Assembly: GCA_027339965.1 (NCBI GenBank)
Contig: DAHWNL010000013.1
Span: 1-10,283 of the forward strand
DNA from: Granulicella sp.
GTDB taxonomy: Bacteria; Acidobacteriota; Terriglobia; Terriglobales; Acidobacteriaceae
DNA: 10,283 bases
Direction of reading: 5' to 3'
The position numbers were made by a program, and so were the translations under genes. This document shows, piece by piece, positions 1 through 9,599 of the stretch; position 1 is the first letter of the stretch; each line of letters opens with the position of its first letter. The notes under the pieces were generated by a model that saw only the letters and a program-made list of their open reading frames with translations, was not told the origin of the DNA and ran no database searches.

Positions 1-4
1 TCTC

Positions 5-1360
5 CTAAGGAACAACCTTGATGGGCACCAGTTGAAAGCCGAGTTCTCGCGCTTGCGCGTGCAGTCTGGCCGATTTCTGGTGCCGCCGACGCTCCTCCTG
101 TTTTTGAAAGATGGTGGCATCGTACTGTTGATGGGTAGTAACCATGTGGTAGATGATCCGGGCGAGCTTGTGAGCGGTTGCGGTCATGGCCTTTGGAGTT
201 CCCATGCGGGCTTTCATACGGCGGAAATAGTCTCCGAGGAAACTGTCGCTGCGGTTCAACGCCTGTGTAGCCACACGCAGGGAAAGTGCGGCACGATTCT
301 TGGTGGGACGGGTTCTAGAGGATAGGACCTGGCCGCCGCTGATCCTTGGGTCTGGGCACAGCCGCAGCCAGGAGCAGAAGGCGGCGGCGGTCGGAAATCG
401 AGCCAGATCCGGACCGATCTCCGTGAGCAGCATTTGTGCGGTTAAGGCGTTGATGCCGGGAATCTCGGTCAGGTCCACTCCGAATGCCCGATAGAGGTCC
501 TCGCGCAATTGCGGTGGTTCATTCCTCCAGGGAACCTTGCGAGCACGGCGCTTGCTTCCCTGCGGAGGCTGTTCGCCTTCAGCAACTTTGGAGGGAAGCC
601 GTTGCATCATTTGCTTGACCTGTGCGTCAACTTCCTGGATCAACTCCTGGTAATACCGGTAAGCCTTAAGGGACTGGCGGAGTGTGAACAGGTGCTCCTC
701 GCGGTAGTCGCCGACCAGCGACTTCATGATGGTCTCCTCGCTGGCGCGAATCCGTGGGTGACGCAGTTGAGCCAGTTTATGCGGATCGCGCTCTCCAGCC
801 AGGATCGCGTCCATGATGGCCAGGCCGGTAATGCCATCGAGGTCGCTAATGACGTGATGAATCTGCAGGTTCATCTGGTCGAGCGCCTTCTGCATGTGCT
901 GCAGATGAAGGGTGGCCAACTGAATGAGGTTGTCGCGATGGCGCCACAGCGATCGGATCGCGCAGATTTCGTCGTCGGGGCGGAAGGATCCGCGCAACAG
1001 GCCCACGGAATGAAGGTGCTGAATCCACTGGCAGTCGGAAACATCGGATTTCCTGCCGGGCACGTTCTTGACGTGATGGGCGTTGACCAATCGCACGTCG
1101 ATCTTGCGCTTTTCCAGAATCTGAAACAGCGGTATCCAATAAACGCCTGTGGATTCCATGGCTACGGTGCGGATATGACATCCCTGGAGCCAATCCGCCA
1201 GCCTTTCCAAATCGACGGTGAATGTGGGGAAGCACCGAATGGGTTCCGGATCGCGGTCGGCAGGAACCGCAACGAAGATCTCCGTTGCTCCAACATCGAT
1301 TCCGGCGGCATTCGGCTCAATTACGGGCAGGCTGACAGCCTTGTTGTGCTGCTTGGGCAT
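5..1360 (-). CDS. IS110 family transposase (DEDD RuvC-like recombinase), ~451 aa
   Basis: N-terminal DEDD motifs GIDVG, AMESTGVYW and PGRKSDVSD. C-terminal Transposase_20-type region LTEIPGI...EIGPDLARFPTAAAFCSWLRLCP..RISGG (conserved SG serine) and ATAHKLARIIY. ATG at 1360 (MPKQHN) is preferred over the track start at 1420 because GGAG lies 5 nt upstream. The TAG stop at 5-7 coincides with the element end. Confidence 0.96.
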   Translation of the reverse strand: MPKQHNKAVSLPVIEPNAAGIDVGATEIFVAVPADRDPEPIRCFPTFTVDLERLADWLQGCHIRTVAMESTGVYWIPLFQILEKRKIDVRLVNAHHVKNVPGRKSDVSDCQWIQHLHSVGLLRGSFRPDDEICAIRSLWRHRDNLIQLATLHLQHMQKALDQMNLQIHHVISDLDGITGLAIMDAILAGERDPHKLAQLRHPRIRASEETIMKSLVGDYREEHLFTLRQSLKAYRYYQELIQEVDAQVKQMMQRLPSKVAEGEQPPQGSKRRARKVPWRNEPPQLREDLYRAFGVDLTEIPGINALTAQMLLTEIGPDLARFPTAAAFCSWLRLCPDPRISGGQVLSSRTRPTKNRAALSLRVATQALNRSDSFLGDYFRRMKARMGTPKAMTATAHKLARIIYHMVTTHQQYDATIFQKQEERRRHQKSARLHAQARELGFQLVPIKVVP

Positions 1361-1384: not shown

Positions 1385-1555
1385 CGCCGGCCTGGACCGT
1401 GCAAGAAGGTAGTCTCCCAAACGAGATCGTCAGCCCCAATGTCTGAGGCTGCGCGTCATCACTGTACTGAGCACGGGGTCCAGAACCACACTGCCGGACG
1501 AGCTTGGTAAGGCATCAGTGAGCCGTCGGTCTTAGCTGCCAACGCTCGGGACTCC
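1385..1555 (-). ncRNA. Putative IS110 bridge RNA (target-binding loop ~1485-1532, donor-binding loop ~1392-1483)
   Basis: Lies in the non-coding end upstream of an IS110 recombinase. On the minus strand it has two repeated modules UGAUG-hairpin-CUCGU-N5-AG. Closing stem 1392-1402/1471-1483. The apical stem 1431-1438/1444-1451 pairs fully (one G-U) only as a minus-strand RNA. The N5-AG segments match the element end and the flank. Exact transcript ends are unknown. Confidence 0.75.
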
Positions 1556-1558
1556 TCC

Positions 1559-1564
1559 AGCCTA
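1559..1564 (-). promoter_or_regulatory. Candidate -10 box (TAGGCT) for the bridge RNA/transposase transcript
   Basis: TAnnnT hexamer directly upstream of the structured region on the minus strand. No convincing -35 box in the linear element. Confidence 0.35.
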
Positions 1565-1624
1565 AAACAAAGCGCTCGACCTTTGTTCCTTACCTGACTG
1601 TCCAGACCTCGGTCTGGTCCCCCA

Positions 1625-1642
1625 CTGCCGGTGGATACTTAC
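1625..1642. mobile_element. Possible IS66-family terminal inverted repeat remnant (minus strand GTAAGTATCCACCGGCAG)
   Basis: IS66 termini begin with GTAA(G). This 18-bp segment lies exactly between the inferred IS110 boundary and the start of ISL3 homology and fits neither element. No IS66 ORF is present in the window. Confidence 0.45.
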
Positions 1643-1824
1643 TGATGAACTGGTTCCGGGCCAAAGGCGAGTTTTCGAGCGCCGCCGTCGAGGGTCTGAA
1701 CAACAAATGCCGAGTGGTTACCAGACGATCCTACGGTTTTCGAGCATACAAAGACATCGAACTCGCTATGTATCACACTCTTGGACGGCTGCCCGAACCG
1801 GAGTCTACCCACAGATTCTGCTGA
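1642..1824 (+). pseudogene. 3' fragment (60 codons) of an ISL3 family transposase, truncated by insertion
   Basis: Manual translation gives LMNWFRAKGEFSSAAVEGLNNKCRVVTRRSYGFRAYKDIELAMYHTLGRLPEPESTHRFC* (TGA 1822-1824). It contains the ISL3 signature S/N-x-x-x-EG-x-NNK-x5-R-x-x-YGFR. Not in the supplied ORF track. Confidence 0.9.
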
Positions 1825-1830
1825 GGAGGC
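1807..1830 (+). repeat. Right terminal inverted repeat of the ISL3 element (ACCCACAGATTCTGCTGAGGAGGC)
   Basis: Overlaps the transposase stop and ends 6 nt later, followed by AT-rich ATTATTCG (1831-1838), consistent with the 8-bp AT-rich targets of ISL3. The partner IR is outside the window. Confidence 0.6.
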
Positions 1831-2306: not shown

Positions 2307-5153
2307 ATGATGAATCGTACGGATCGATCTCAACTTCGACTGGCAGTGACACTGTTTGTTGTTTTGGTGCTGGGGGCTGTTTCCGGCAGTCTTGTCCGTG
2401 CGGAGACTGCGCAGCCATTGCAGGGATCTGCCTCGAAGGCGCCAGGCCTGTACAATCCTGTTGCTGCTCCAAGCGCCATTGTAACCTTGGGACGAGCGCG
2501 ATTCACGGTTCTAACCTCACGGCTAATTCGCATGGAATGGGCGTCGAACGGGCTCTTTGAAGATCATGCTTCCCTGGTATTTTTAAATCGCAGGTTGTCG
2601 GTTCCCAAGTTCCGTTCCCGTATCCAACGATTAGACGGCGGTCGAGTTCTTTCCATCGACACAGAGTATCTGCACCTTGTCTATCGCGTTGTTGCCACCA
2701 GCGACGGGAAGTTCACTCCAGATGACTTGCAGCTTCAATTCACGCTGAACGGCAAACCGGTTGAATGGCGCCCGGGGATGAAAGATCCGGAAAATCTGCT
2801 GGGAACAACCCGCACTTTGGATGGCGCCAATGCCGGCGATACAAGCGAACCGATCGGGCAGGGTCTGGTCTCCCGATCCGGCTGGGTGCTTGTGGACGAC
2901 TCCAAGACACCTCTTTTTGATTCTTCAGATTTCCGCTTCTCGGCCGGTGAACAGAGCCCATGGCCCTGGGTGACGGAACGGCCGGCAGGAGACCGACAGG
3001 ACTGGTACTTCTTCGGCTATGGGCACGACTACAAGGCGGCTCTGGGCGCGTACATCCAAGTGGCGGGCCGCATTCCCCTGCCCCCCTACTTCGCCTTTGG
3101 CGCCTGGTGGTCGCGTTACTGGGCGTACAGCGATCAGGAGCTGCAGCGACTGATCCATGATTTCCGTGAGAGCAGTGTGCCGCTCGATGTTCTGGTTGTC
3201 GATATGGATTGGCATCTGACGGCGCCACAACTCAAGGGCCAGGTCGACCAATCCGGGCAGCAACTGGGATGGACTGGATTCAGTTGGAACAAACTCTTGT
3301 TTCCGGATCCCGCCGGATTCCTTCAGTGGGTGCACTCGCAAGGGATGAAGGTCGCGTTGAACCTGCACCCCGCAGGAGGCATTGAGCCATGGGAGACAAG
3401 GTATCCGGAGATGGCCAAGTCTATGGGCGTCGATCCGGAGTCGAAAAGATACATACCATTTGAGATCACGGACAAGAGATTCGCCACCAACTACATGAAG
3501 GTCATGCATCATCCGCTGGAGAAGGAAGGCGTTAACTTCTGGTGGCTCGATTGGCAGCAGGGGGCCCGGACGGCGCTACCGAACCTGAATCCAACCTGGT
3601 GGCTGAACTATGTATATTTCACGGACCAGGCGCGGGAGGGCAAGCGGCCGATCCTCTTCGGTCGGTGGGGAGGTTTGGGGAATCATCGTTATCAGGTAGG
3701 ATTCTCCGGCGATGTGATCTCCACCTGGGACTCGTTGGCCTTTCAACCGTGGTTCACTGCAACTGCCGCCAATGTCGGATACGGTTATTGGAGCCACGAT
3801 ATCGGGGGGCACCTTCCGGGCGTCGATTCACCGGAACTTTTCACGCGATGGGTGCAGTTTGGAGCCTTCAGTCCAATTCTGCGCACGCATGTATCGCTGG
3901 ATCCGGAAGCGGAGCGGCGCATATGGGCCTATCCTGAACCGTATTCGGATATCATGCGCAAGGCATATCAGCTTCGCTACGCGCTGATTCCTTACATTTA
4001 CACCGAGGCAAGACGGACCTACGACACCGGGGTCGCATTTCTCCATCCCTTGTACTACGACTGGCCGAACGCTGCCGCCGCCTATGACAATCGAGGGGAG
4101 TACATGTTCGGCAGCCAGATGCTGATCGCGCCAGTGACTGCGCCTGCCGATCCAGTGACACACCTGGCGACAAAGTCGATCTGGCTTCCAAAGGGCTCGT
4201 GGATTGAGTGGCAGACAGGAAAGCATTTCACAGGTCCAGTTCAGATAAGCCGTAGCTTCAGCATTGGCCAGACGCCGGTGTATGTTCATCCGGGAGCGAT
4301 CATCCCTATGGCTCCCCCGATGGCCTACACCGGGCAAAAGCCGGTGGATCCGCTGATTCTGACCATTTTCCCCTTGGACGCGGGGATGAAGTCGAGCTAT
4401 ACGCTCTACCAGGATGCGCGCGATACGAACGCCTATCAGGATGGACAGGCAGCATGGACGACGATTCATGCGCAGCAGCAGATTGATGTGCTGACCCTGC
4501 GCATCGATCCTGTTCGTGGGAGTTACCCCGGGATGCAACGCACGCGAAGCTATGAGATACGTCTGCCGGACGACTGGCCGCCTTCGTCAGTAACTTTGAA
4601 CGGGAAAGCACTTGCATACCGGGCCGGAGAACAAGGCGCTGGTTGGAACTACAAGGGAGATACACTCACGACGACGATCCGGACGCCAGAGGTTCGAGTG
4701 GATCAACCGGCGGTCTTCCGCATTGCCCTGCCTGACGGTTCAAACGCGCGGCTGCCGGAGCTGGATGGCTTTCCTGGAGCGCTGGAGCGATTGCACGAAG
4801 CTTCCGTGGTGATCGACTCAACCCATCCGCTGGCATGGAGGCCGGACCCCTTGGTGGATGCCATGCAGACCGGAGATCGGATCACCTACCATCCCAATGA
4901 GGCCCAACAGCAGTTGGGTGCGTTTCAGAACGAATTGCAAGCTGCGCAGGAGGCCGTGCTGGCTTTGAAAGATGAAGGCGTGAAGGCGCAGCAACACATG
5001 CAGCAAGGAAAGATCAGGTACTATCCGCAGCCGTTTGTCGCCGCTCATGAAAAGAACCTAGAAACCAGACAGGTAGACGATTACGGAGACAACTTCAGAC
5101 GTGTGCTGGCTCTTATGCAAGATGCGCGCGACGACGCTTCAGAGACGAAGTGA
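2307..5153 (+). CDS. Secreted glycoside hydrolase family 31 (GH31_u1-like alpha-glucosidase) with C-terminal beta-sandwich (DUF5110-like) and helical tail, 948 aa
   Basis: GH31 motifs G-x-WWSRYW, PLDVLVVDMDWH, nucleophile FWWLDWQQG, acid/base GFSGD, WSHDIGGH, RWVQFGAFSPILRTH and YMFGSQMLIAPV. Sec-type signal peptide (hydrophobic core, VRA|ET). GGAGAGG at 2286-2292. The start could be 2310. Confidence 0.95.
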   Translation: MMNRTDRSQLRLAVTLFVVLVLGAVSGSLVRAETAQPLQGSASKAPGLYNPVAAPSAIVTLGRARFTVLTSRLIRMEWASNGLFEDHASLVFLNRRLSVPKFRSRIQRLDGGRVLSIDTEYLHLVYRVVATSDGKFTPDDLQLQFTLNGKPVEWRPGMKDPENLLGTTRTLDGANAGDTSEPIGQGLVSRSGWVLVDDSKTPLFDSSDFRFSAGEQSPWPWVTERPAGDRQDWYFFGYGHDYKAALGAYIQVAGRIPLPPYFAFGAWWSRYWAYSDQELQRLIHDFRESSVPLDVLVVDMDWHLTAPQLKGQVDQSGQQLGWTGFSWNKLLFPDPAGFLQWVHSQGMKVALNLHPAGGIEPWETRYPEMAKSMGVDPESKRYIPFEITDKRFATNYMKVMHHPLEKEGVNFWWLDWQQGARTALPNLNPTWWLNYVYFTDQAREGKRPILFGRWGGLGNHRYQVGFSGDVISTWDSLAFQPWFTATAANVGYGYWSHDIGGHLPGVDSPELFTRWVQFGAFSPILRTHVSLDPEAERRIWAYPEPYSDIMRKAYQLRYALIPYIYTEARRTYDTGVAFLHPLYYDWPNAAAAYDNRGEYMFGSQMLIAPVTAPADPVTHLATKSIWLPKGSWIEWQTGKHFTGPVQISRSFSIGQTPVYVHPGAIIPMAPPMAYTGQKPVDPLILTIFPLDAGMKSSYTLYQDARDTNAYQDGQAAWTTIHAQQQIDVLTLRIDPVRGSYPGMQRTRSYEIRLPDDWPPSSVTLNGKALAYRAGEQGAGWNYKGDTLTTTIRTPEVRVDQPAVFRIALPDGSNARLPELDGFPGALERLHEASVVIDSTHPLAWRPDPLVDAMQTGDRITYHPNEAQQQLGAFQNELQAAQEAVLALKDEGVKAQQHMQQGKIRYYPQPFVAAHEKNLETRQVDDYGDNFRRVLALMQDARDDASETK

Positions 5154-5707: not shown

Positions 5708-6799
5708 ATGTTCGAGACAATTCCAGATTCCATGCAGGCTGCGGTGTACCGAGCAGTGAATGTTGTCCAAACGGAGACCATCCCGGTTCCGCAGATTGGC
5801 CCGGGTGAGGTGCTGATGCGCGTGGATACGTGCGGGATCTGCGGCACGGATCTGAAGAAAATTCACACCGGGTCACACTCGGCGCCACGGGTCTTCGGCC
5901 ACGAGATGGCGGGGACGATCGCCGCGGTGGGCAGGGGAGTGCGAGGATTCGGGGTGGGGGATCGGGTGATGGCCTTTCACCACATTCCTTGCGGAGTTTG
6001 CTTCTACTGCCGAAAGAAGACCTTTGCACAGTGCGAGCGATATAAGAAAGTGGGTACCACGGCCGGGTTGGGAGAGGCTGCGGGCGGCGGCTTTGCGGAG
6101 TATATCCGGGTGATGGAATGGATTGTGGGCGACGGAGCCCGGCCAGCCGGTCTGGTCCGCATACCCGACGATATTCCGTTTGAGCAGGCAGCGTTTCTTG
6201 AGCCGGTGAATACGTGCTTCAAGGCGATCCGTCTGCTGGATCTGGAGCCGGACGATACGGTGCTGGTGATGGGACAGGGAAGCATCGGCATTCTGCTCGC
6301 GGCATTGGCGCGGCAGACGGGGGCGACGGTCTTGACCTCAGACATGTATGCCGAGAGGCATGCCATTGCAGCGCACTATGGGTTGGATCACCCTCTGGAT
6401 GCGCGCGGTGATGTGGTGGGAGCCTGCAAAGCGGCCACCGCAGGGCGCGGAGCGGATGTGGCGCTGTTGGCGGTCGGCTCTGATGCTCTGATTGCGACGG
6501 CGATGCAGGCTATTCGACCGGGTGGCAGGGTGATGCTGTTTGCCAGCACGCAGCATGGAGAGGCAAAGTTCGATCCTGCAGCGGTATGCATGGAGGAGAA
6601 GACCCTGATGGGTTCCTACTCGGCGTCAGTGGCGATTCAGCAGGAAGGAATCGACCTGGTCTTCGAAGGGTATCGATCCGGCAAGCTGGATCTTACCCGG
6701 CTTATCTCGCACCGATTCTCGCTGCAAGAGGCCTCTGCGGCGATTCATCTGGCTTCGCATCCCAGAGCGGATTCGATGAAGATCGTGCTCAAGCCTTGA
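5708..6799 (+). CDS. Zinc-dependent medium-chain alcohol/polyol dehydrogenase (L-iditol 2-dehydrogenase-like MDR), 363 aa
   Basis: Catalytic Zn motifs CGICGTD and GHE; structural Zn CGVCFYCRKKTFAQC (C-x2-C-x2-C-x7-C); EP motif; Rossmann GQGSIG followed by an acidic residue (LTSD), suggesting NAD(H). GAGAGG at 5691-5696. Alternative start at 5732. Confidence 0.95.
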   Translation: MFETIPDSMQAAVYRAVNVVQTETIPVPQIGPGEVLMRVDTCGICGTDLKKIHTGSHSAPRVFGHEMAGTIAAVGRGVRGFGVGDRVMAFHHIPCGVCFYCRKKTFAQCERYKKVGTTAGLGEAAGGGFAEYIRVMEWIVGDGARPAGLVRIPDDIPFEQAAFLEPVNTCFKAIRLLDLEPDDTVLVMGQGSIGILLAALARQTGATVLTSDMYAERHAIAAHYGLDHPLDARGDVVGACKAATAGRGADVALLAVGSDALIATAMQAIRPGGRVMLFASTQHGEAKFDPAAVCMEEKTLMGSYSASVAIQQEGIDLVFEGYRSGKLDLTRLISHRFSLQEASAAIHLASHPRADSMKIVLKP

Positions 6800-7103: not shown

Positions 7104-9599
7104 TTAGCGGATGACCTGGATGAGGCTGCTGGTTGATCCGCTCCAGGCCGGAGAGCCGCTGTGGCTGAGCTGTCCGGTAGCGTCATTCCAGTGCAGTCTG
7201 GTGATGTGGAAGCTACCCTTTTCATATGAGTAGGTCTTTCCGTCGTCGTTGAAGAGAGTGAAGTCAGCGTCTGCGCCTGGAAATATCTGCAACGCATTGA
7301 TCTTCTGCGGTTGAGAGGTGCTGAGAATCCGACTTCCCAGAGGAATGATGGATCCTGCCCGGACGAAGAGGGGGAGAACGTCAATCGGGGCAGAGACGGT
7401 GATCGTCTGACCGCCCTTGTAACGCTGCTTTGTCCAGTAGTTAAACCAGGCTGTTCCGGCCGGCAGATACACTTTGCGGCTTGTCGCTCCCTGTTCGGTG
7501 ACAGGGGCAACCAGAAATGCCGGACCGAACATGTACTCATCGCGGATGTCAGCCACCTTCTGGTCGTGCGGAAAATCCATGAACAGGGCCCTCATATACG
7601 GTGCGTCCGTCTGGTAGCTCTGATATGCGACGGAGTAGATATACGGCAAAAGCTGATAGCGCAGGCGAAGATATTTCTCAAGTATTGGCTCGGCCTGTTT
7701 CCCATAGGCCCAAACTTCGTTATGACTTCGAGCTCCATGAGCCCGCATGACCGGTTGGAAGACTCCCCACTCAAACCAGCGTACAAAAAGCTCTGGATAA
7801 TCCGAATAGCTCTTGACCGTGGCTTCCGCGCCCGCAGGACTTACCAAAGGCGTATGTTCGGGCTGGTAATCCGCGGGAAGATGGGGTGGGCGGAAACCCG
7901 CAATATCGGTGTCCCAGTAAGGGAAGCCAGAGGCCGTAAAGTCCAGTCCAGCCGGAATTGAGCGCTTGAGCATGTCCCAGGTGGCCGTGATGTCGCTCGA
8001 CCAGAAGACGGCACCGTTGGCTTGCGCGCCCAGATACGCTGCTCGGGCCAGGAGAAAAACGCGGCGCTGGTCGCCAAAGTCCCGCCGGAAGCCGTCATAA
8101 ACGGAAGCAGTATGGAACAGGGGGTAGATGTTGTAGTCCTTGCGCCCCGATCCGACGTAAAAGAAATCATGGAGGGGATCGATATCGGGTTCAGTTTCGT
8201 CGAGCCAGATATAGCTGAAGCCGTCCTTCTTCACGTACTCATCACGAATCTTTTCCCACCACCATCTGGCAGCGGCGGGATTTGTGGTGTCGATGTTGGG
8301 GCCAATGGAGTCGGGAACGCCATCGGAGTCGGGTTTGCCATCGGCTTTGCGAATAAACCAGCCATTTTGTTCCAGCATCTTGTAGTACTTGGAGTCGGTG
8401 GCGAAGTGTGGCCAGACACTGATCAGCGTGGAGATGCCCATCGAGTGGAGCTGCTTGTTCATGGCTGCCGGATCAGGCCATCGGCTGGGAACCAAGTCAA
8501 AGTTGCCATACGCCGTCATGTTGAAGAAGTCTACGACCAGGATATCGAGCGGCAGATTGCGCTCCCGGTATCCCTTGGCGACGCTCAGCAGCTCATTTTG
8601 GCTGGCGTAGATCATCTTGCTCTGGATGAAGCCGTATGCAGGCTTCGGCAACATGTGTGCGGGGCCGGTGAGTTGGCGGTATCCTGCGTAAACCTCATCC
8701 GTGTTATCGCCGGCGATGACGAAGAAGGAGACTCGGTCTCCCACGTCAGAGGACCACACATTCTTAAGGTTGAATCCGAGATCGATGGTGGTCTTCGATG
8801 GGTTGTCCCAGATCAGGCCGTAGCCGCGGCTGGAAACCAGGAAGGGAACACAGACGCTCTCTCCACCCACTGCGTCATAGTTTTGCCAACAACGGATGCG
8901 ATGGTCTCGGAGATCCAAAAAGCCTTGCTGGTGCTGTCCAAGACCGTAATAGTGCTCGTCGGCCGGAGAGTCAAAGACGGCTGATACCTGGAATTCCGCG
9001 TCCGCCTTCGCGATGCTTGAGGATCCCTCGCCGGATTTTTCCCCTTGGTTTGGAGTCATGTTCCAGCGCCGCAGAGAGAGCAGCGGTTTCCCGGATGCAG
9101 TTGCAATCGAGATGAGGTCGTTGAAGGGCCCGGTGACTGGGACTGGACCGTTGATATGGTGCGCAGTGGCGGCGAAGGCCGCCCTGGTCGCCTTGCTCAG
9201 CGGCAGGATGAGCGGCGGCTGATCTCCCGGGCCAATGCGGATAGCCATTTTGCCCGACCGAATCACCTCAGATCCATCCGCGGCCTGCTGGCTGGACCAC
9301 CCCTTCATCGATGGAGCACCCGAGATCCCATATCCAGGCTGAGCAAGAGCAGCGGATCTTTCTGTGCTCAAGGTGATGCGAACGATGTTGGGAGCATAGG
9401 GCTCAATGGCCACGGTACGTCCGTTTCGCGATAGCACGATTGGCGTATCGGCGGCCCACGCGGGCCGGCAACTCATCAGGATCGTTCCTAGCGCCAGGGC
9501 GACTCCGGCCGCACCAACAGAGCGCCACATCGTCCCTCTCCTGCATTCCGCCGACGCTGTCCCGGGAATCTCTACGTTCAAGCCGTGCCTTGATTTCAT
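7104..9599 (-). CDS. Secreted glycoside hydrolase family 31, XylS-like putative alpha-xylosidase, 831 aa
   Basis: YYGLGQHQ, VPFLVSSRGYGLIWDNPS, PLDILVVDF, nucleophile WLDETEP, acid/base WSSDI, YWDTDIAGF, RWFEWGVFQPVMRAHG and YMFGPAFLVAPV. Signal peptide ends AWA|AD. RBS GAGGTG precedes ATG 9599; an alternative ATG at 9530 also has an RBS (GGAGAGGG). Confidence 0.95.
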   Translation of the reverse strand: MKSRHGLNVEIPGTASAECRRGTMWRSVGAAGVALALGTILMSCRPAWAADTPIVLSRNGRTVAIEPYAPNIVRITLSTERSAALAQPGYGISGAPSMKGWSSQQAADGSEVIRSGKMAIRIGPGDQPPLILPLSKATRAAFAATAHHINGPVPVTGPFNDLISIATASGKPLLSLRRWNMTPNQGEKSGEGSSSIAKADAEFQVSAVFDSPADEHYYGLGQHQQGFLDLRDHRIRCWQNYDAVGGESVCVPFLVSSRGYGLIWDNPSKTTIDLGFNLKNVWSSDVGDRVSFFVIAGDNTDEVYAGYRQLTGPAHMLPKPAYGFIQSKMIYASQNELLSVAKGYRERNLPLDILVVDFFNMTAYGNFDLVPSRWPDPAAMNKQLHSMGISTLISVWPHFATDSKYYKMLEQNGWFIRKADGKPDSDGVPDSIGPNIDTTNPAAARWWWEKIRDEYVKKDGFSYIWLDETEPDIDPLHDFFYVGSGRKDYNIYPLFHTASVYDGFRRDFGDQRRVFLLARAAYLGAQANGAVFWSSDITATWDMLKRSIPAGLDFTASGFPYWDTDIAGFRPPHLPADYQPEHTPLVSPAGAEATVKSYSDYPELFVRWFEWGVFQPVMRAHGARSHNEVWAYGKQAEPILEKYLRLRYQLLPYIYSVAYQSYQTDAPYMRALFMDFPHDQKVADIRDEYMFGPAFLVAPVTEQGATSRKVYLPAGTAWFNYWTKQRYKGGQTITVSAPIDVLPLFVRAGSIIPLGSRILSTSQPQKINALQIFPGADADFTLFNDDGKTYSYEKGSFHITRLHWNDATGQLSHSGSPAWSGSTSSLIQVIR

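What the first reader, a model, noticed from the sequence alone, without database searches (positions are those of the whole stretch)
1625..1650. IS110 seems to have inserted into the terminus of an IS66-like element, itself inserted in an ISL3 transposase
Seen: between the inferred IS110 boundary and the ISL3 reading frame lies CTGCCGGTGGATACTTAC, whose reverse complement starts GTAAGTATCC. Established: IS66 ends start with GTAA and make 8-bp target duplications, and some IS110-family elements (IS4321/IS5075) specifically target transposon terminal IRs. Inference: a three-level nest, with the bridge-RNA guide programmed against another mobile element's end, meaning hitch-hiking on or inactivation of IS66. 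TGATGAAC (1643-1650) would be the IS66 duplication.
Basis: partly seen in the sequence, partly recalled or inferred. Interest (0 to 1): 0.75.

Follow-up and report, generated by a model that had tools for sequence, protein, structure and literature searches.

The report
RNA-guided transposon targeting IS200 end hairpins
An RNA-guided jumping gene (IS110) here sits in the tip of the DNA hairpin that another jumping gene (IS200 type) needs in order to move, and its relatives hit the same spot again and again, so one mobile element is programmed to parasitise another.

Summary
The nest is real, but the middle element is not IS66. Bases 1627-1642 are the outer half of the right end of an IS200-group element (ISMex34-like, Y1 transposase): hairpin arm, ATAC, then the TTAC cleavage site, whose reverse complement is the 'GTAA'. 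The IS110 (2-1626, CT core at 2-3 and 1625-1626) sits in the hairpin's TCT loop. ISL3 coding sequence resumes at 1643, so TGATGAAC is ISL3 codons, not a duplication. The same 18-mer occurs uninterrupted in 3 loci, once just after an intact IS200 tnpA. Relatives of this IS110 sit in the right or left IS200 hairpin in 75 of 80 pattern-found loci and 10 of the 12 closest protein-found loci. Both target guides of the bridge RNA covary with the target. None of 18 complete host elements has terminal inverted repeats; one shows a 7/8 duplication-like match. The left flank is not assembled, so the 5' part of ISL3 is inferred, and hitch-hiking versus inactivation is open. IS110s that target other elements are known; IS200 ends as a target were not found in my searches. 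The scan noted an IS110 in a host hairpin repeat elsewhere, but not this target.

The parts
1..1 (+). First base (T) of the TCT loop of the IS200 right-end hairpin; the contig stops here
   Evidence: Relatives continue on this side with the complementary arm; one base only in the window, so inferred
2..3 (+). IS110 core dinucleotide (CT; AG on the IS110 coding strand), right-end copy
   Evidence: a right-end/AG/left-end junction of a relative is assembled in L035
2..1626 (-). Whole IS110 element with both cores (1623 nt plus one repeated core)
   Evidence: Full-length relatives measure 1605-1644 nt between the same landmarks, one deleted copy 1476
5..1360 (-). IS110 DEDD recombinase, 451 aa
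   Evidence: Pfam, NCBIfam; start at the ATG of 1360 from the alignment of relatives
6..15 (+). Sub-terminal inverted repeat of the IS110, right copy
   Evidence: 8-9 of 9 bases complementary in all 46 inserts the script printed, with changes on both sides in mini copies
1583..1592 (+). Sub-terminal inverted repeat of the IS110, left copy
1390..1560 (-). Predicted bridge RNA (two parallel loop modules); RNA ends not known
   Evidence: Alignment and consensus fold of 15 relatives, 14 of 31 pairs with a change on both sides; single-sequence fold not better than shuffles (z -0.36)
1520..1525 (-). Right target guide CGGCT(C), reverse complement of the target right of the core
   Evidence: Best window of the scan: 77 of 135 matches, shuffle mean 39.3, max 56
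1489..1497 (-). Left target guide CCGGC + core AG + TG
   Evidence: Best window of the scan: 115 of 135 matches, shuffle mean 43.8, max 61
1414..1420 (-). Probable left donor guide
   Evidence: 33 of 35 matches against shuffle mean 25.5, max 33: weak because nearly invariant
1602..1617 (.). Small hairpin in the IS110 left end, kept in the 59-66 nt mini elements
1625..1626 (+). IS110 core dinucleotide (CT), left-end copy = last two bases of the hairpin loop
1627..1634 (+). 3' arm (GCCGGTGG) of the IS200 right-end hairpin
   Evidence: Uninterrupted hairpins with this arm in L032, L135, L156
1635..1642 (+). Spacer ATAC and right cleavage tetranucleotide TTAC: end of the IS200-group element
   Evidence: TTAC in 35 of 54 distinct right ends at a fixed register, flank beyond it variable; guide AAAG with TTAC in 15 of 21
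1643..1830 (+). 3' remnant of an ISL3 element: last transposase codons (stop 1822-1824) and right end
   Evidence: homologues match from 1642 to 1828-1831

Best explanation
An IS200-group element (tnpA-only, ISMex34-like, or one of its 210-430 nt ends-only derivatives) inserted into an ISL3 transposase gene by single-strand peel-and-paste, 3' of a CT-N-N tetranucleotide and without duplication. An IS110 whose bridge RNA reads CCGGC-AG-AGCCG then recombined at the AG core, which on the other strand is the TCT loop of the IS200 subterminal hairpin. The left and right IS200 hairpins share these 12 bases, so one guide covers both ends of every such element. The insertion replaces the 3-base loop with 1.6 kb and most likely stops TnpA from using that end until the IS110 leaves. 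For the IS110 the benefit is a repeated, self-renewing, non-essential landing site, as REPs are for IS621 and ISPpu9. Shown by sequence comparison: identity of the host end, the insertion point, use of both ends, guide covariation. Inferred: order of events, the ISL3 5' part on the left, loss of IS200 mobility, expression of the RNA.
For: Exact 18-mer uninterrupted in 3 loci; in L135 it follows an intact tnpA whose left hairpin holds an IS110 left end. L169 is a complete IS200 with IS110 in the right hairpin (PF01797 7e-37). L212, an IS110-free element of the same build, scores NF033573 122.9 bits against a cut-off of 55 and is 74% identical over 98% of its length to the element annotated ISMex34, which has the same two hairpins and a TTAC end. 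Of 80 metagenome loci classified (80 of 97 found), 58 have a right-end flank, 17 a left-end flank and 5 neither. Of the 12 closest protein-found loci, chosen without regard to flank, 10 have IS200-end flanks. Of 38 distinct events of this guide type with both flanks, 35 classify as IS200 ends on both sides. Left guide and target tetranucleotide of the host covary: last base complementary in 26 of 28, shuffle mean 14.3, max 23 of 20000. Bridge guides covary with targets across 46 and 38 relatives. Intact ISL3 homologues read CTGC just before this junction, which fits the CT-N-N rule. Contigs of run X6 carry two other flanks after 1643/1644 and an intact ISL3 allele that joins at 1642.
Against: The window holds one base left of the IS110, so its own left arm and ISL3 5' part are unseen. 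No ISMex34-like tnpA is in this assembly. The metagenome pattern contained CCGGCAG, so the 75 of 80 count is enriched; only bases beyond the pattern were used to classify. L028 and probably L024 are off-target. The C14 copy has a 7 of 8 match between its left and right flanks, and no intact homologue of its host gene was found to settle it. Kin are not independent: the 28 left ends fall into only 7 guide/target types, 3 of them dominant, and 2 rows fail. No right donor guide was found. No RNA run was listed to test expression.
Confidence: 0.88

Rival explanations
1. Same anatomy, but the IS110-carrying IS200 end still works: TnpA moves the composite, so the IS110 hitch-hikes rather than inactivates.
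For: The same ends-only element with the IS110 in its right hairpin stands at three different sites (L122, L140, and the L141 group), with IS110 98.8-99.3% and host 97.0-98.8% identical. An ends-only element with a mini insert stands at two sites (L181, L182). The stem arms are predicted still to pair across the insert (P 0.95-1.0 in 3 of 3 composites folded as ssDNA). X6 shows three flanks after the same half-hairpin. A 28-nt insert in an IS605 right end was reported in elements that had replicated (PMC7290912, passage).
Against: Independent insertion into pre-existing copies explains all of this. L032 has the L181-type host with an empty right hairpin and IS110 in the left one, and one mini-insert type occurs in different hosts and in both ends. 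TnpA recognises hairpin structure, called indispensable in PMC7290912 (also PMC3201880).
Confidence: 0.2
2. One reading: the IS110 hit the terminal inverted repeat of an IS66-like element, with TGATGAAC as an 8-bp duplication.
For: The reverse complement starts GTAA; IS66 tnpC pieces exist in this genome (5 matches); one host copy (C14) has a 7 of 8 flank match.
Against: 0 of 18 complete host elements start with GTAA at the other end, and end-to-end complementarity is at most 4 of 12. Flank matches are 0-4 of 8 in 17 of 18, including the three near-identical siblings of the C14 copy at 2 of 8. IS66 tnpC hits 0 of 177 IS110 loci. TGATGAAC is ISL3 coding sequence.
Confidence: 0.01
3. 1627-1642 is the IS110's own left end and the hairpin arms are its own terminal repeats, so the IS110 went straight into ISL3 at CT 1642-1643.
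For: Close relatives share TAAGTATCC-N-CCGGCAG at the left; ISL3 similarity starts at the CT of 1642-1643; an X4 contig ends at 1643.
Against: The arms exist joined by a 3-base loop with no IS110 (32 distinct uninterrupted hairpins). 17 of 80 relatives have a left-end interior there instead. The L035 junction joins the IS110 ends at AG without these bases. The guide matches these bases as a target, and in relatives it changes with them.
Confidence: 0.02
4. The IS200 end is real but only abuts an ISL3 remnant; the 5' part of ISL3 is lost or elsewhere, or the host is a solitary left/right hybrid hairpin rather than a whole element.
For: No 5' part of this ISL3 copy was found in the assembly. Hybrid hosts (left-end outer half plus right-end outer half) make up 5 of 38 two-sided events and exist empty in 2 of 301 genomes.
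Against: The junction falls exactly after a CT-N-N of the intact ISL3 reading, as a clean insertion predicts; the assembly is in 88 pieces and breaks at this repeat.
Confidence: 0.15

Closest known systems
IS621 and ISPpu9 (IS110 group, REP-targeting; PMC11208160, PMC12288879)
   Same: DEDD recombinase, bridge RNA in the long left end, 2-base core (AG in ISPpu9 as here), target is a repeated palindrome; ISPpu9 also has a non-autonomous companion (MITEPpu9).
   Different: The target is the working end of an active IS family, not a REP. [quoted passage not shown] There is a 9-10 bp sub-terminal repeat, against 2-3 bp for the IS110 group. The recombinase is 451 aa, against 315-330 for the IS621 branch.
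IS4321/IS5075 (IS1111 group; target Tn21-family terminal inverted repeats; Partridge and Hall 2003, seen only as a title in a reference list)
   Same: An IS110-family element aimed at another element's ends, able to hit both ends; sub-terminal repeats; top-strand guide before bottom-strand guide (the IS1111 order in PMC11187229).
   Different: The target is a single-strand hairpin recognised by a Y1 HUH transposase, not a double-stranded inverted repeat of a DDE transposon; the non-coding region is upstream here.
ISEc21 (IS110 family; targets IS3-family transposase codons; PMC11187229)
   Same: An IS110 with upstream non-coding region whose natural target is another IS.
   Different: It hits coding sequence and has the opposite guide order.
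ISMex34-like IS200/IS605 elements and ends-only derivatives (PATEs; IS608 mechanism, PMC3201880; PMC7290912)
   Same: The host element: Y1 tnpA, hairpin at each end, guide tetranucleotide at the 5' foot, no terminal repeats, no duplication. The AAAG/TTAC pair is the one IS608 uses at its left end.
   Different: Here AAAG/TTAC serves the right end, and the target is CT-N-N (mostly CTAA, CTAT); no tnpB in the complete copies seen (656-659 nt).

Membership tests
IS66 (middle element) | Terminal inverted repeats starting GTAA at both ends (feature recalled; paper search returned nothing) | tested here: not met
   0 of 18 complete host elements; at most 4 of 12 bases complementary
IS66 (middle element) | 8-bp target duplication (recalled) | tested here: not met
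   0-4 of 8 in 17 of 18, 7 of 8 in the C14 copy; not testable for the window's own copy
IS66 (middle element) | tnpA/tnpB/tnpC genes | tested here: not met
   tnpC query hits only this genome's own IS66 loci, 0 of 177 IS110 loci; tnpA and tnpB were not queried against these loci
IS200/IS605 (middle element) | Y1 HUH transposase tnpA between the ends | tested here: met
   For the family: L169 PF01797, L212 NF033573, L135 with the exact right end. The window's own copy is cut off; no such tnpA in the assembly
IS200/IS605 (middle element) | Subterminal hairpin at each end | tested here: met
IS200/IS605 (middle element) | Guide tetranucleotide at the hairpin foot pairs with the cleavage tetranucleotide | tested here: met
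   Left: 26 of 28 at the last base, shuffle mean 14.3. Right: AAAG/TTAC in 15 of 21. Pairing of the first two guide bases is from PMC3201880; the fourth-base pair is recalled
IS200/IS605 (middle element) | No terminal repeats, no target duplication, insertion 3' of a fixed tetranucleotide | tested here: met
   three copies in G009 share CTAT on the left and differ beyond both ends
IS200/IS605 (middle element) | Single-strand peel-and-paste by TnpA | not testable with these tools
   needs biochemistry
IS110 family (inner element) | DEDD RuvC-like domain plus PF02371 domain | tested here: met
IS110 family (inner element) | Short core repeated at both ends; ends join in a circle | tested here: met
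   CT at 2-3 and 1625-1626; end-to-end junction assembled in relative L035, which may be a circle or a collapsed tandem
IS110 family (inner element) | Non-coding RNA with guides for both halves of the target | tested here: met
   Covariation scan, consensus fold; expression not shown
IS110 family (inner element) | Donor-binding loop with left and right donor guides | tested here: inconclusive
   Left donor guide weak (33 of 35 against 25.5); no right donor guide stood out
IS110 group in the narrow sense (IS621 type) | Long non-coding region upstream of the gene | tested here: met
   264 nt upstream (1361-1624), about 1 nt downstream of the stop
IS110 group in the narrow sense (IS621 type) | Bottom-strand guide 5' of top-strand guide; sub-terminal repeat only 2-3 bp | tested here: not met
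   Order reversed (1525-1521 before 1497-1493); 9-10 bp repeat
IS1111 group | Sub-terminal repeats of 7-17 bp and top-strand guide first | tested here: met
   but the left copy lies 32 nt inside the end
IS1111 group | Non-coding region downstream; transposase of 330-350 aa | tested here: not met
   Upstream; 451 aa
IS1111 group | Placement in the IS1111 clade of a transposase tree | not tested
   No ISfinder reference set on hand
ISL3 (outer element) | DDE_Tnp_ISL3 transposase | tested here: met
   C-terminal 59 aa, PF01610 30.5 bits against a cut-off of 23; below the whole-protein NCBIfam cut-off
ISL3 (outer element) | Both ends and the 5' part of the gene present around the nest | not testable with these tools
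   Contig ends at position 1; run contigs extend past it but their letters were not returned

The most novel reading that the evidence does not exclude
A clade of IS110 elements, with its own 59-66 nt non-autonomous minis, lives as a dedicated parasite of IS200-group ends: one guide reads the hairpin shared by both ends; the interrupted end either still travels with TnpA, giving the IS110 a second route of spread, or is switched off and on by IS110 entry and exit; TTT-loop hairpins, which lack the AG core, are escape alleles; and sister clades have been re-aimed at a conserved 3' region of other IS families. The bridge RNA has an IS1111-like guide order in an upstream position with no clear right donor guide, which would be a third layout.
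Probability: 0.2. Interest if true: 0.8.

Novelty: new variant of a known kind. Interest (0 to 1): 0.62.

Why it matters
It adds a new class of natural target for RNA-guided bridge recombinases: the single-strand recognition hairpins of IS200/IS605 elements, the family that carries TnpB and IscB, although the hosts seen here are tnpA-only or ends-only. It turns 'why do IS110s aim at palindromes' into a testable case with defined alleles (TCT loop open, TTT loop lacking the core), and sets up a direct test of whether TnpA tolerates an insert at the hairpin tip. The natural 59-66 nt minis mark out a minimal donor, and the reversed guide order widens the set of bridge-RNA layouts for engineering. 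It is also a warning for annotation: comparing copies alone would wrongly add 16 bases of target to this IS110's end.

Tried and rejected
IS66: rejected on ends, duplication and genes. 1627-1642 as the IS110's own end: rejected. GGTTCT at 1487-1483 as right target guide: no covariation (32 of 135 against 34.1). My first right-guide and donor-guide test used the wrong register and gave nothing; a scan over all positions replaced it (5 of 51 rows dropped for gaps, Ns or a circle junction). The first host guide/target test used a fixed spacer and mis-registered several of 28 rows; it was redone with a 9-11 nt spacer chosen on the first three bases only, so its first-base result is partly circular and only the fourth base counts. 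Left flank: not in the 88 contigs. Contigs of runs X2, X6 and X10 run past position 1 (by about 81, 44 and 1949 letters by record length), but the letters were not returned. Intact homologue of the gene interrupted on C14: not found in 151 genomes. No RNA holder listed. Rfam: no match. Sigma-70 and terminator scan: none. Single-sequence RNA fold not better than shuffles. Contig depth is higher over the IS110 than over the unique flank, but the tool says this is no copy number, so I did not use it. Scripts 45 and 46 ended in errors; their unfinished parts were rerun.

Full report
Setting. The window is the whole of contig C46 of an 88-contig assembly; the closest relatives of its IS110 lie mostly in Acidobacteriota assemblies (record titles). 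An IS110 recombinase runs 1360->5 on the minus strand. An ISL3 C-terminal fragment follows at 1643-1824. The rest of the window (two GH31 glycosidases, a zinc dehydrogenase) is unrelated.

Where ISL3 resumes. Five homologous ISL3 stretches (C12 of this genome, G005, two in G009, G007) match from 1642 and read L-L-M/L-N-W across the junction. TGATGAAC is therefore ISL3 coding sequence. An intact ISL3 allele joins at 1642 in run X6 (7 differences in 77 bases), and two other flanks follow 1643/1644 in the same run.

Where the IS110 ends. Close relatives share TAAGTATCC-N-CCGGCAG on the left and AGCCGG-N-GG on the right. These two flanks are inverted repeats of each other and change together, which points to a hairpin target rather than IS110 ends. 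The core is AG on the coding strand (CT at 2-3 and 1625-1626). Relative L035 has its right end joined to its left end through one AG, without the flanking bases.

What the target is. Contig C14 holds a 213-nt element ending in AAAG-CCTCCGGC-TTT-GCCGGAGG-ATAC-TTAC, with a similar hairpin near its other end. The same right end was found in 6 of 101 genomes of the genus, none with the reversed control pattern. G009 has three copies that all follow CTAT and differ beyond both ends. L212 carries the same ends around an IS200 tnpA and is 74% identical to the plasmid element annotated ISMex34, which has the same build. The window's exact 18-mer stands uninterrupted in L032, L135 and L156; in L135 it follows an intact tnpA. 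In 28 distinct left ends the last guide base pairs with the last base of the upstream tetranucleotide in 26 (shuffle mean 14.3, max 23); these fall into 7 types, so the independent support is smaller than 28. Right ends pair AAAG with TTAC in 15 of 21. This is the guide/cleavage-site arrangement described for IS608 (PMC3201880, passages; PMC6006769, passages). Of 18 complete host elements none has terminal inverted repeats, and 17 have no flank duplication; the C14 copy has a 7 of 8 match, its three siblings 2 of 8, and the interrupted frame reads on without a duplication. IS200/IS605 elements make neither (PMC7290912, passages). IS66 features are recalled; one search found no paper with them.

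How often. A scan of metagenomes for the IS110 left end gave 97 matches; I classified the 80 with full flanks: 58 right-end, 17 left-end, 5 neither (53, 10 and 4 after removing duplicates). The pattern held CCGGCAG, so this count is enriched. The protein search is blind to flanks: 10 of the 12 closest loci have IS200-end flanks, L024 is doubtful and L028 is not one. Among 42 distinct events with both flanks, 4 belong to a sister group with other guides. Of the other 38, 21 are right hairpins, 9 left hairpins, 5 left/right hybrids with the interior gone, and 3 unclassified on one side. IS200 tnpA lies in 10 of the 177 IS110-related loci, IS66 tnpC in none; most hosts are ends-only.

The RNA. 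Across relatives with different targets, the best same-strand match to the five bases left of the core is at 1497-1493 (115 of 135, shuffle mean 43.8, max 61; 46 sequences). The best reverse-complement match to the five bases right of it is at 1525-1521 (77 of 135, mean 39.3, max 56; 38 sequences). In the window these read CCGGC and CGGCT, which spell the 12 bases common to both IS200 hairpins. A left donor guide is probable at 1420-1414; a right donor guide was not found. The top-strand guide lies 5' of the bottom-strand guide, the reverse of IS621 (PMC11208160 section 6) and the order given for IS1111 elements (PMC11187229, abstract and passages), although the non-coding region is upstream and the protein is 451 aa. 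A 9-10 bp sub-terminal repeat (6-15, 1583-1592) is kept in full and mini copies. The consensus fold has 14 of 31 pairs with two-sided changes; expression is untested.

Extras. Sixteen distinct 59-66 nt minis, made of the two IS110 ends only, occupy the same site. Uninterrupted hairpins have TCT (16), TTT (15) or TCC (1) loops. TTT lacks the core, and the only IS110-free copy in this genome has TTT at both ends; that this is escape is a guess.

Mechanism. Most likely order: the IS200-group element entered ISL3 after CT-N-N (intact homologues read CTGC there), then the IS110 entered the loop. IS110 excision was described as scarless (PMC11208160), while a 2025 preprint reports copy-out that leaves the original in place (10.1101/2025.10.25.684509, abstract), so the block may or may not be reversible. 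Hitch-hiking is not excluded: near-identical composites stand at several sites and the stem is predicted to re-form. But L032 shows the same host with the insert in the other end, so repeated insertion suffices.

Prior work. Targeting of other elements is known: Tn21 repeats (title only), IS3 codons, REPs (PMC12288879, passages). Searches listed no paper whose title or abstract start describes IS110 in IS200 ends; I did not read most listed papers. The supplements of PMC11187229 and PMC11208160 held none of the searched terms (one picture-only file each was not searchable). Sections 6 and 13 of the first and 6 and 12 of the second do not mention it. ISfinder, subscription papers and bioRxiv supplements were out of reach and may hold a note. 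Earlier scan notes describe an IS110 in a host hairpin repeat and a case where the arms were the element's own ends; I tested the latter reading here and it fails.

Verdict. It is a new variant of a known behaviour, well supported by comparison, with the left flank and the functional consequence still to be shown.

Noticed in passing
L112, L115, L119, L121, L131, L137, L155, L158, L159, L163, L165, L171, L178, L181, L182, L189 (also L190-L192, L196, L200, L202, L206): 59-66 nt mini-IS110s made of the left-end hairpin and the sub-terminal repeat only, with no RNA and no gene, in the same IS200 loop; the repeat shows two-sided changes.
   Followed up: partly
L036-L039, L074, L097, L103, left flank of the IS110: Sister IS110s with other guides insert into a conserved non-coding stretch about 100-200 nt past the end of other transposase genes (IS3-like by a recalled C-terminal motif in L036, L037, L074, L097; another type in L038). 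The same stretch follows different transposases and may be a structured passenger element. Families not tested with Pfam.
   Followed up: partly
L031, L115, L123, L156, L166 (with insert); L215, L216 (empty): Solitary hybrid hairpins: left-end outer half joined to right-end outer half with the IS200 interior gone, about 45 nt.
   Followed up: partly
G000 C14:3725-3937 (L208): 213-nt IS200 ends-only element with TTT loops at both ends, inserted in frame-breaking position in another transposase-like gene (family not tested); three 97%-like siblings in G009.
   Followed up: yes
L026, L121, L158, L159, L165, L189, between the two IS200 hairpins: Ends-only hosts whose interior carries REP-like palindromes (label by resemblance, not tested).
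   Followed up: no
L035: A 1777-nt high-coverage contig holding the right-end/AG/left-end junction of a relative: a circle or a collapsed tandem.
   Followed up: no
L113, L124, L126, L129, L142, L162, L167, L183, L185: IS110 left ends in IS200 right hairpins that break off within about 60-300 nt, with no recombinase match behind them.
   Followed up: no
G000 C82:17417-17644 and C54:39029-39226: Two Y1-family hits in this genome (about 35 bits) that do not match the ISMex34-like tnpA.
   Followed up: partly
window 2307-5153 (+), 7104-9599 (-), 5708-6799 (+): Two GH31 glycosidases with DUF5110 and a zinc-binding dehydrogenase; ordinary.
   Followed up: no
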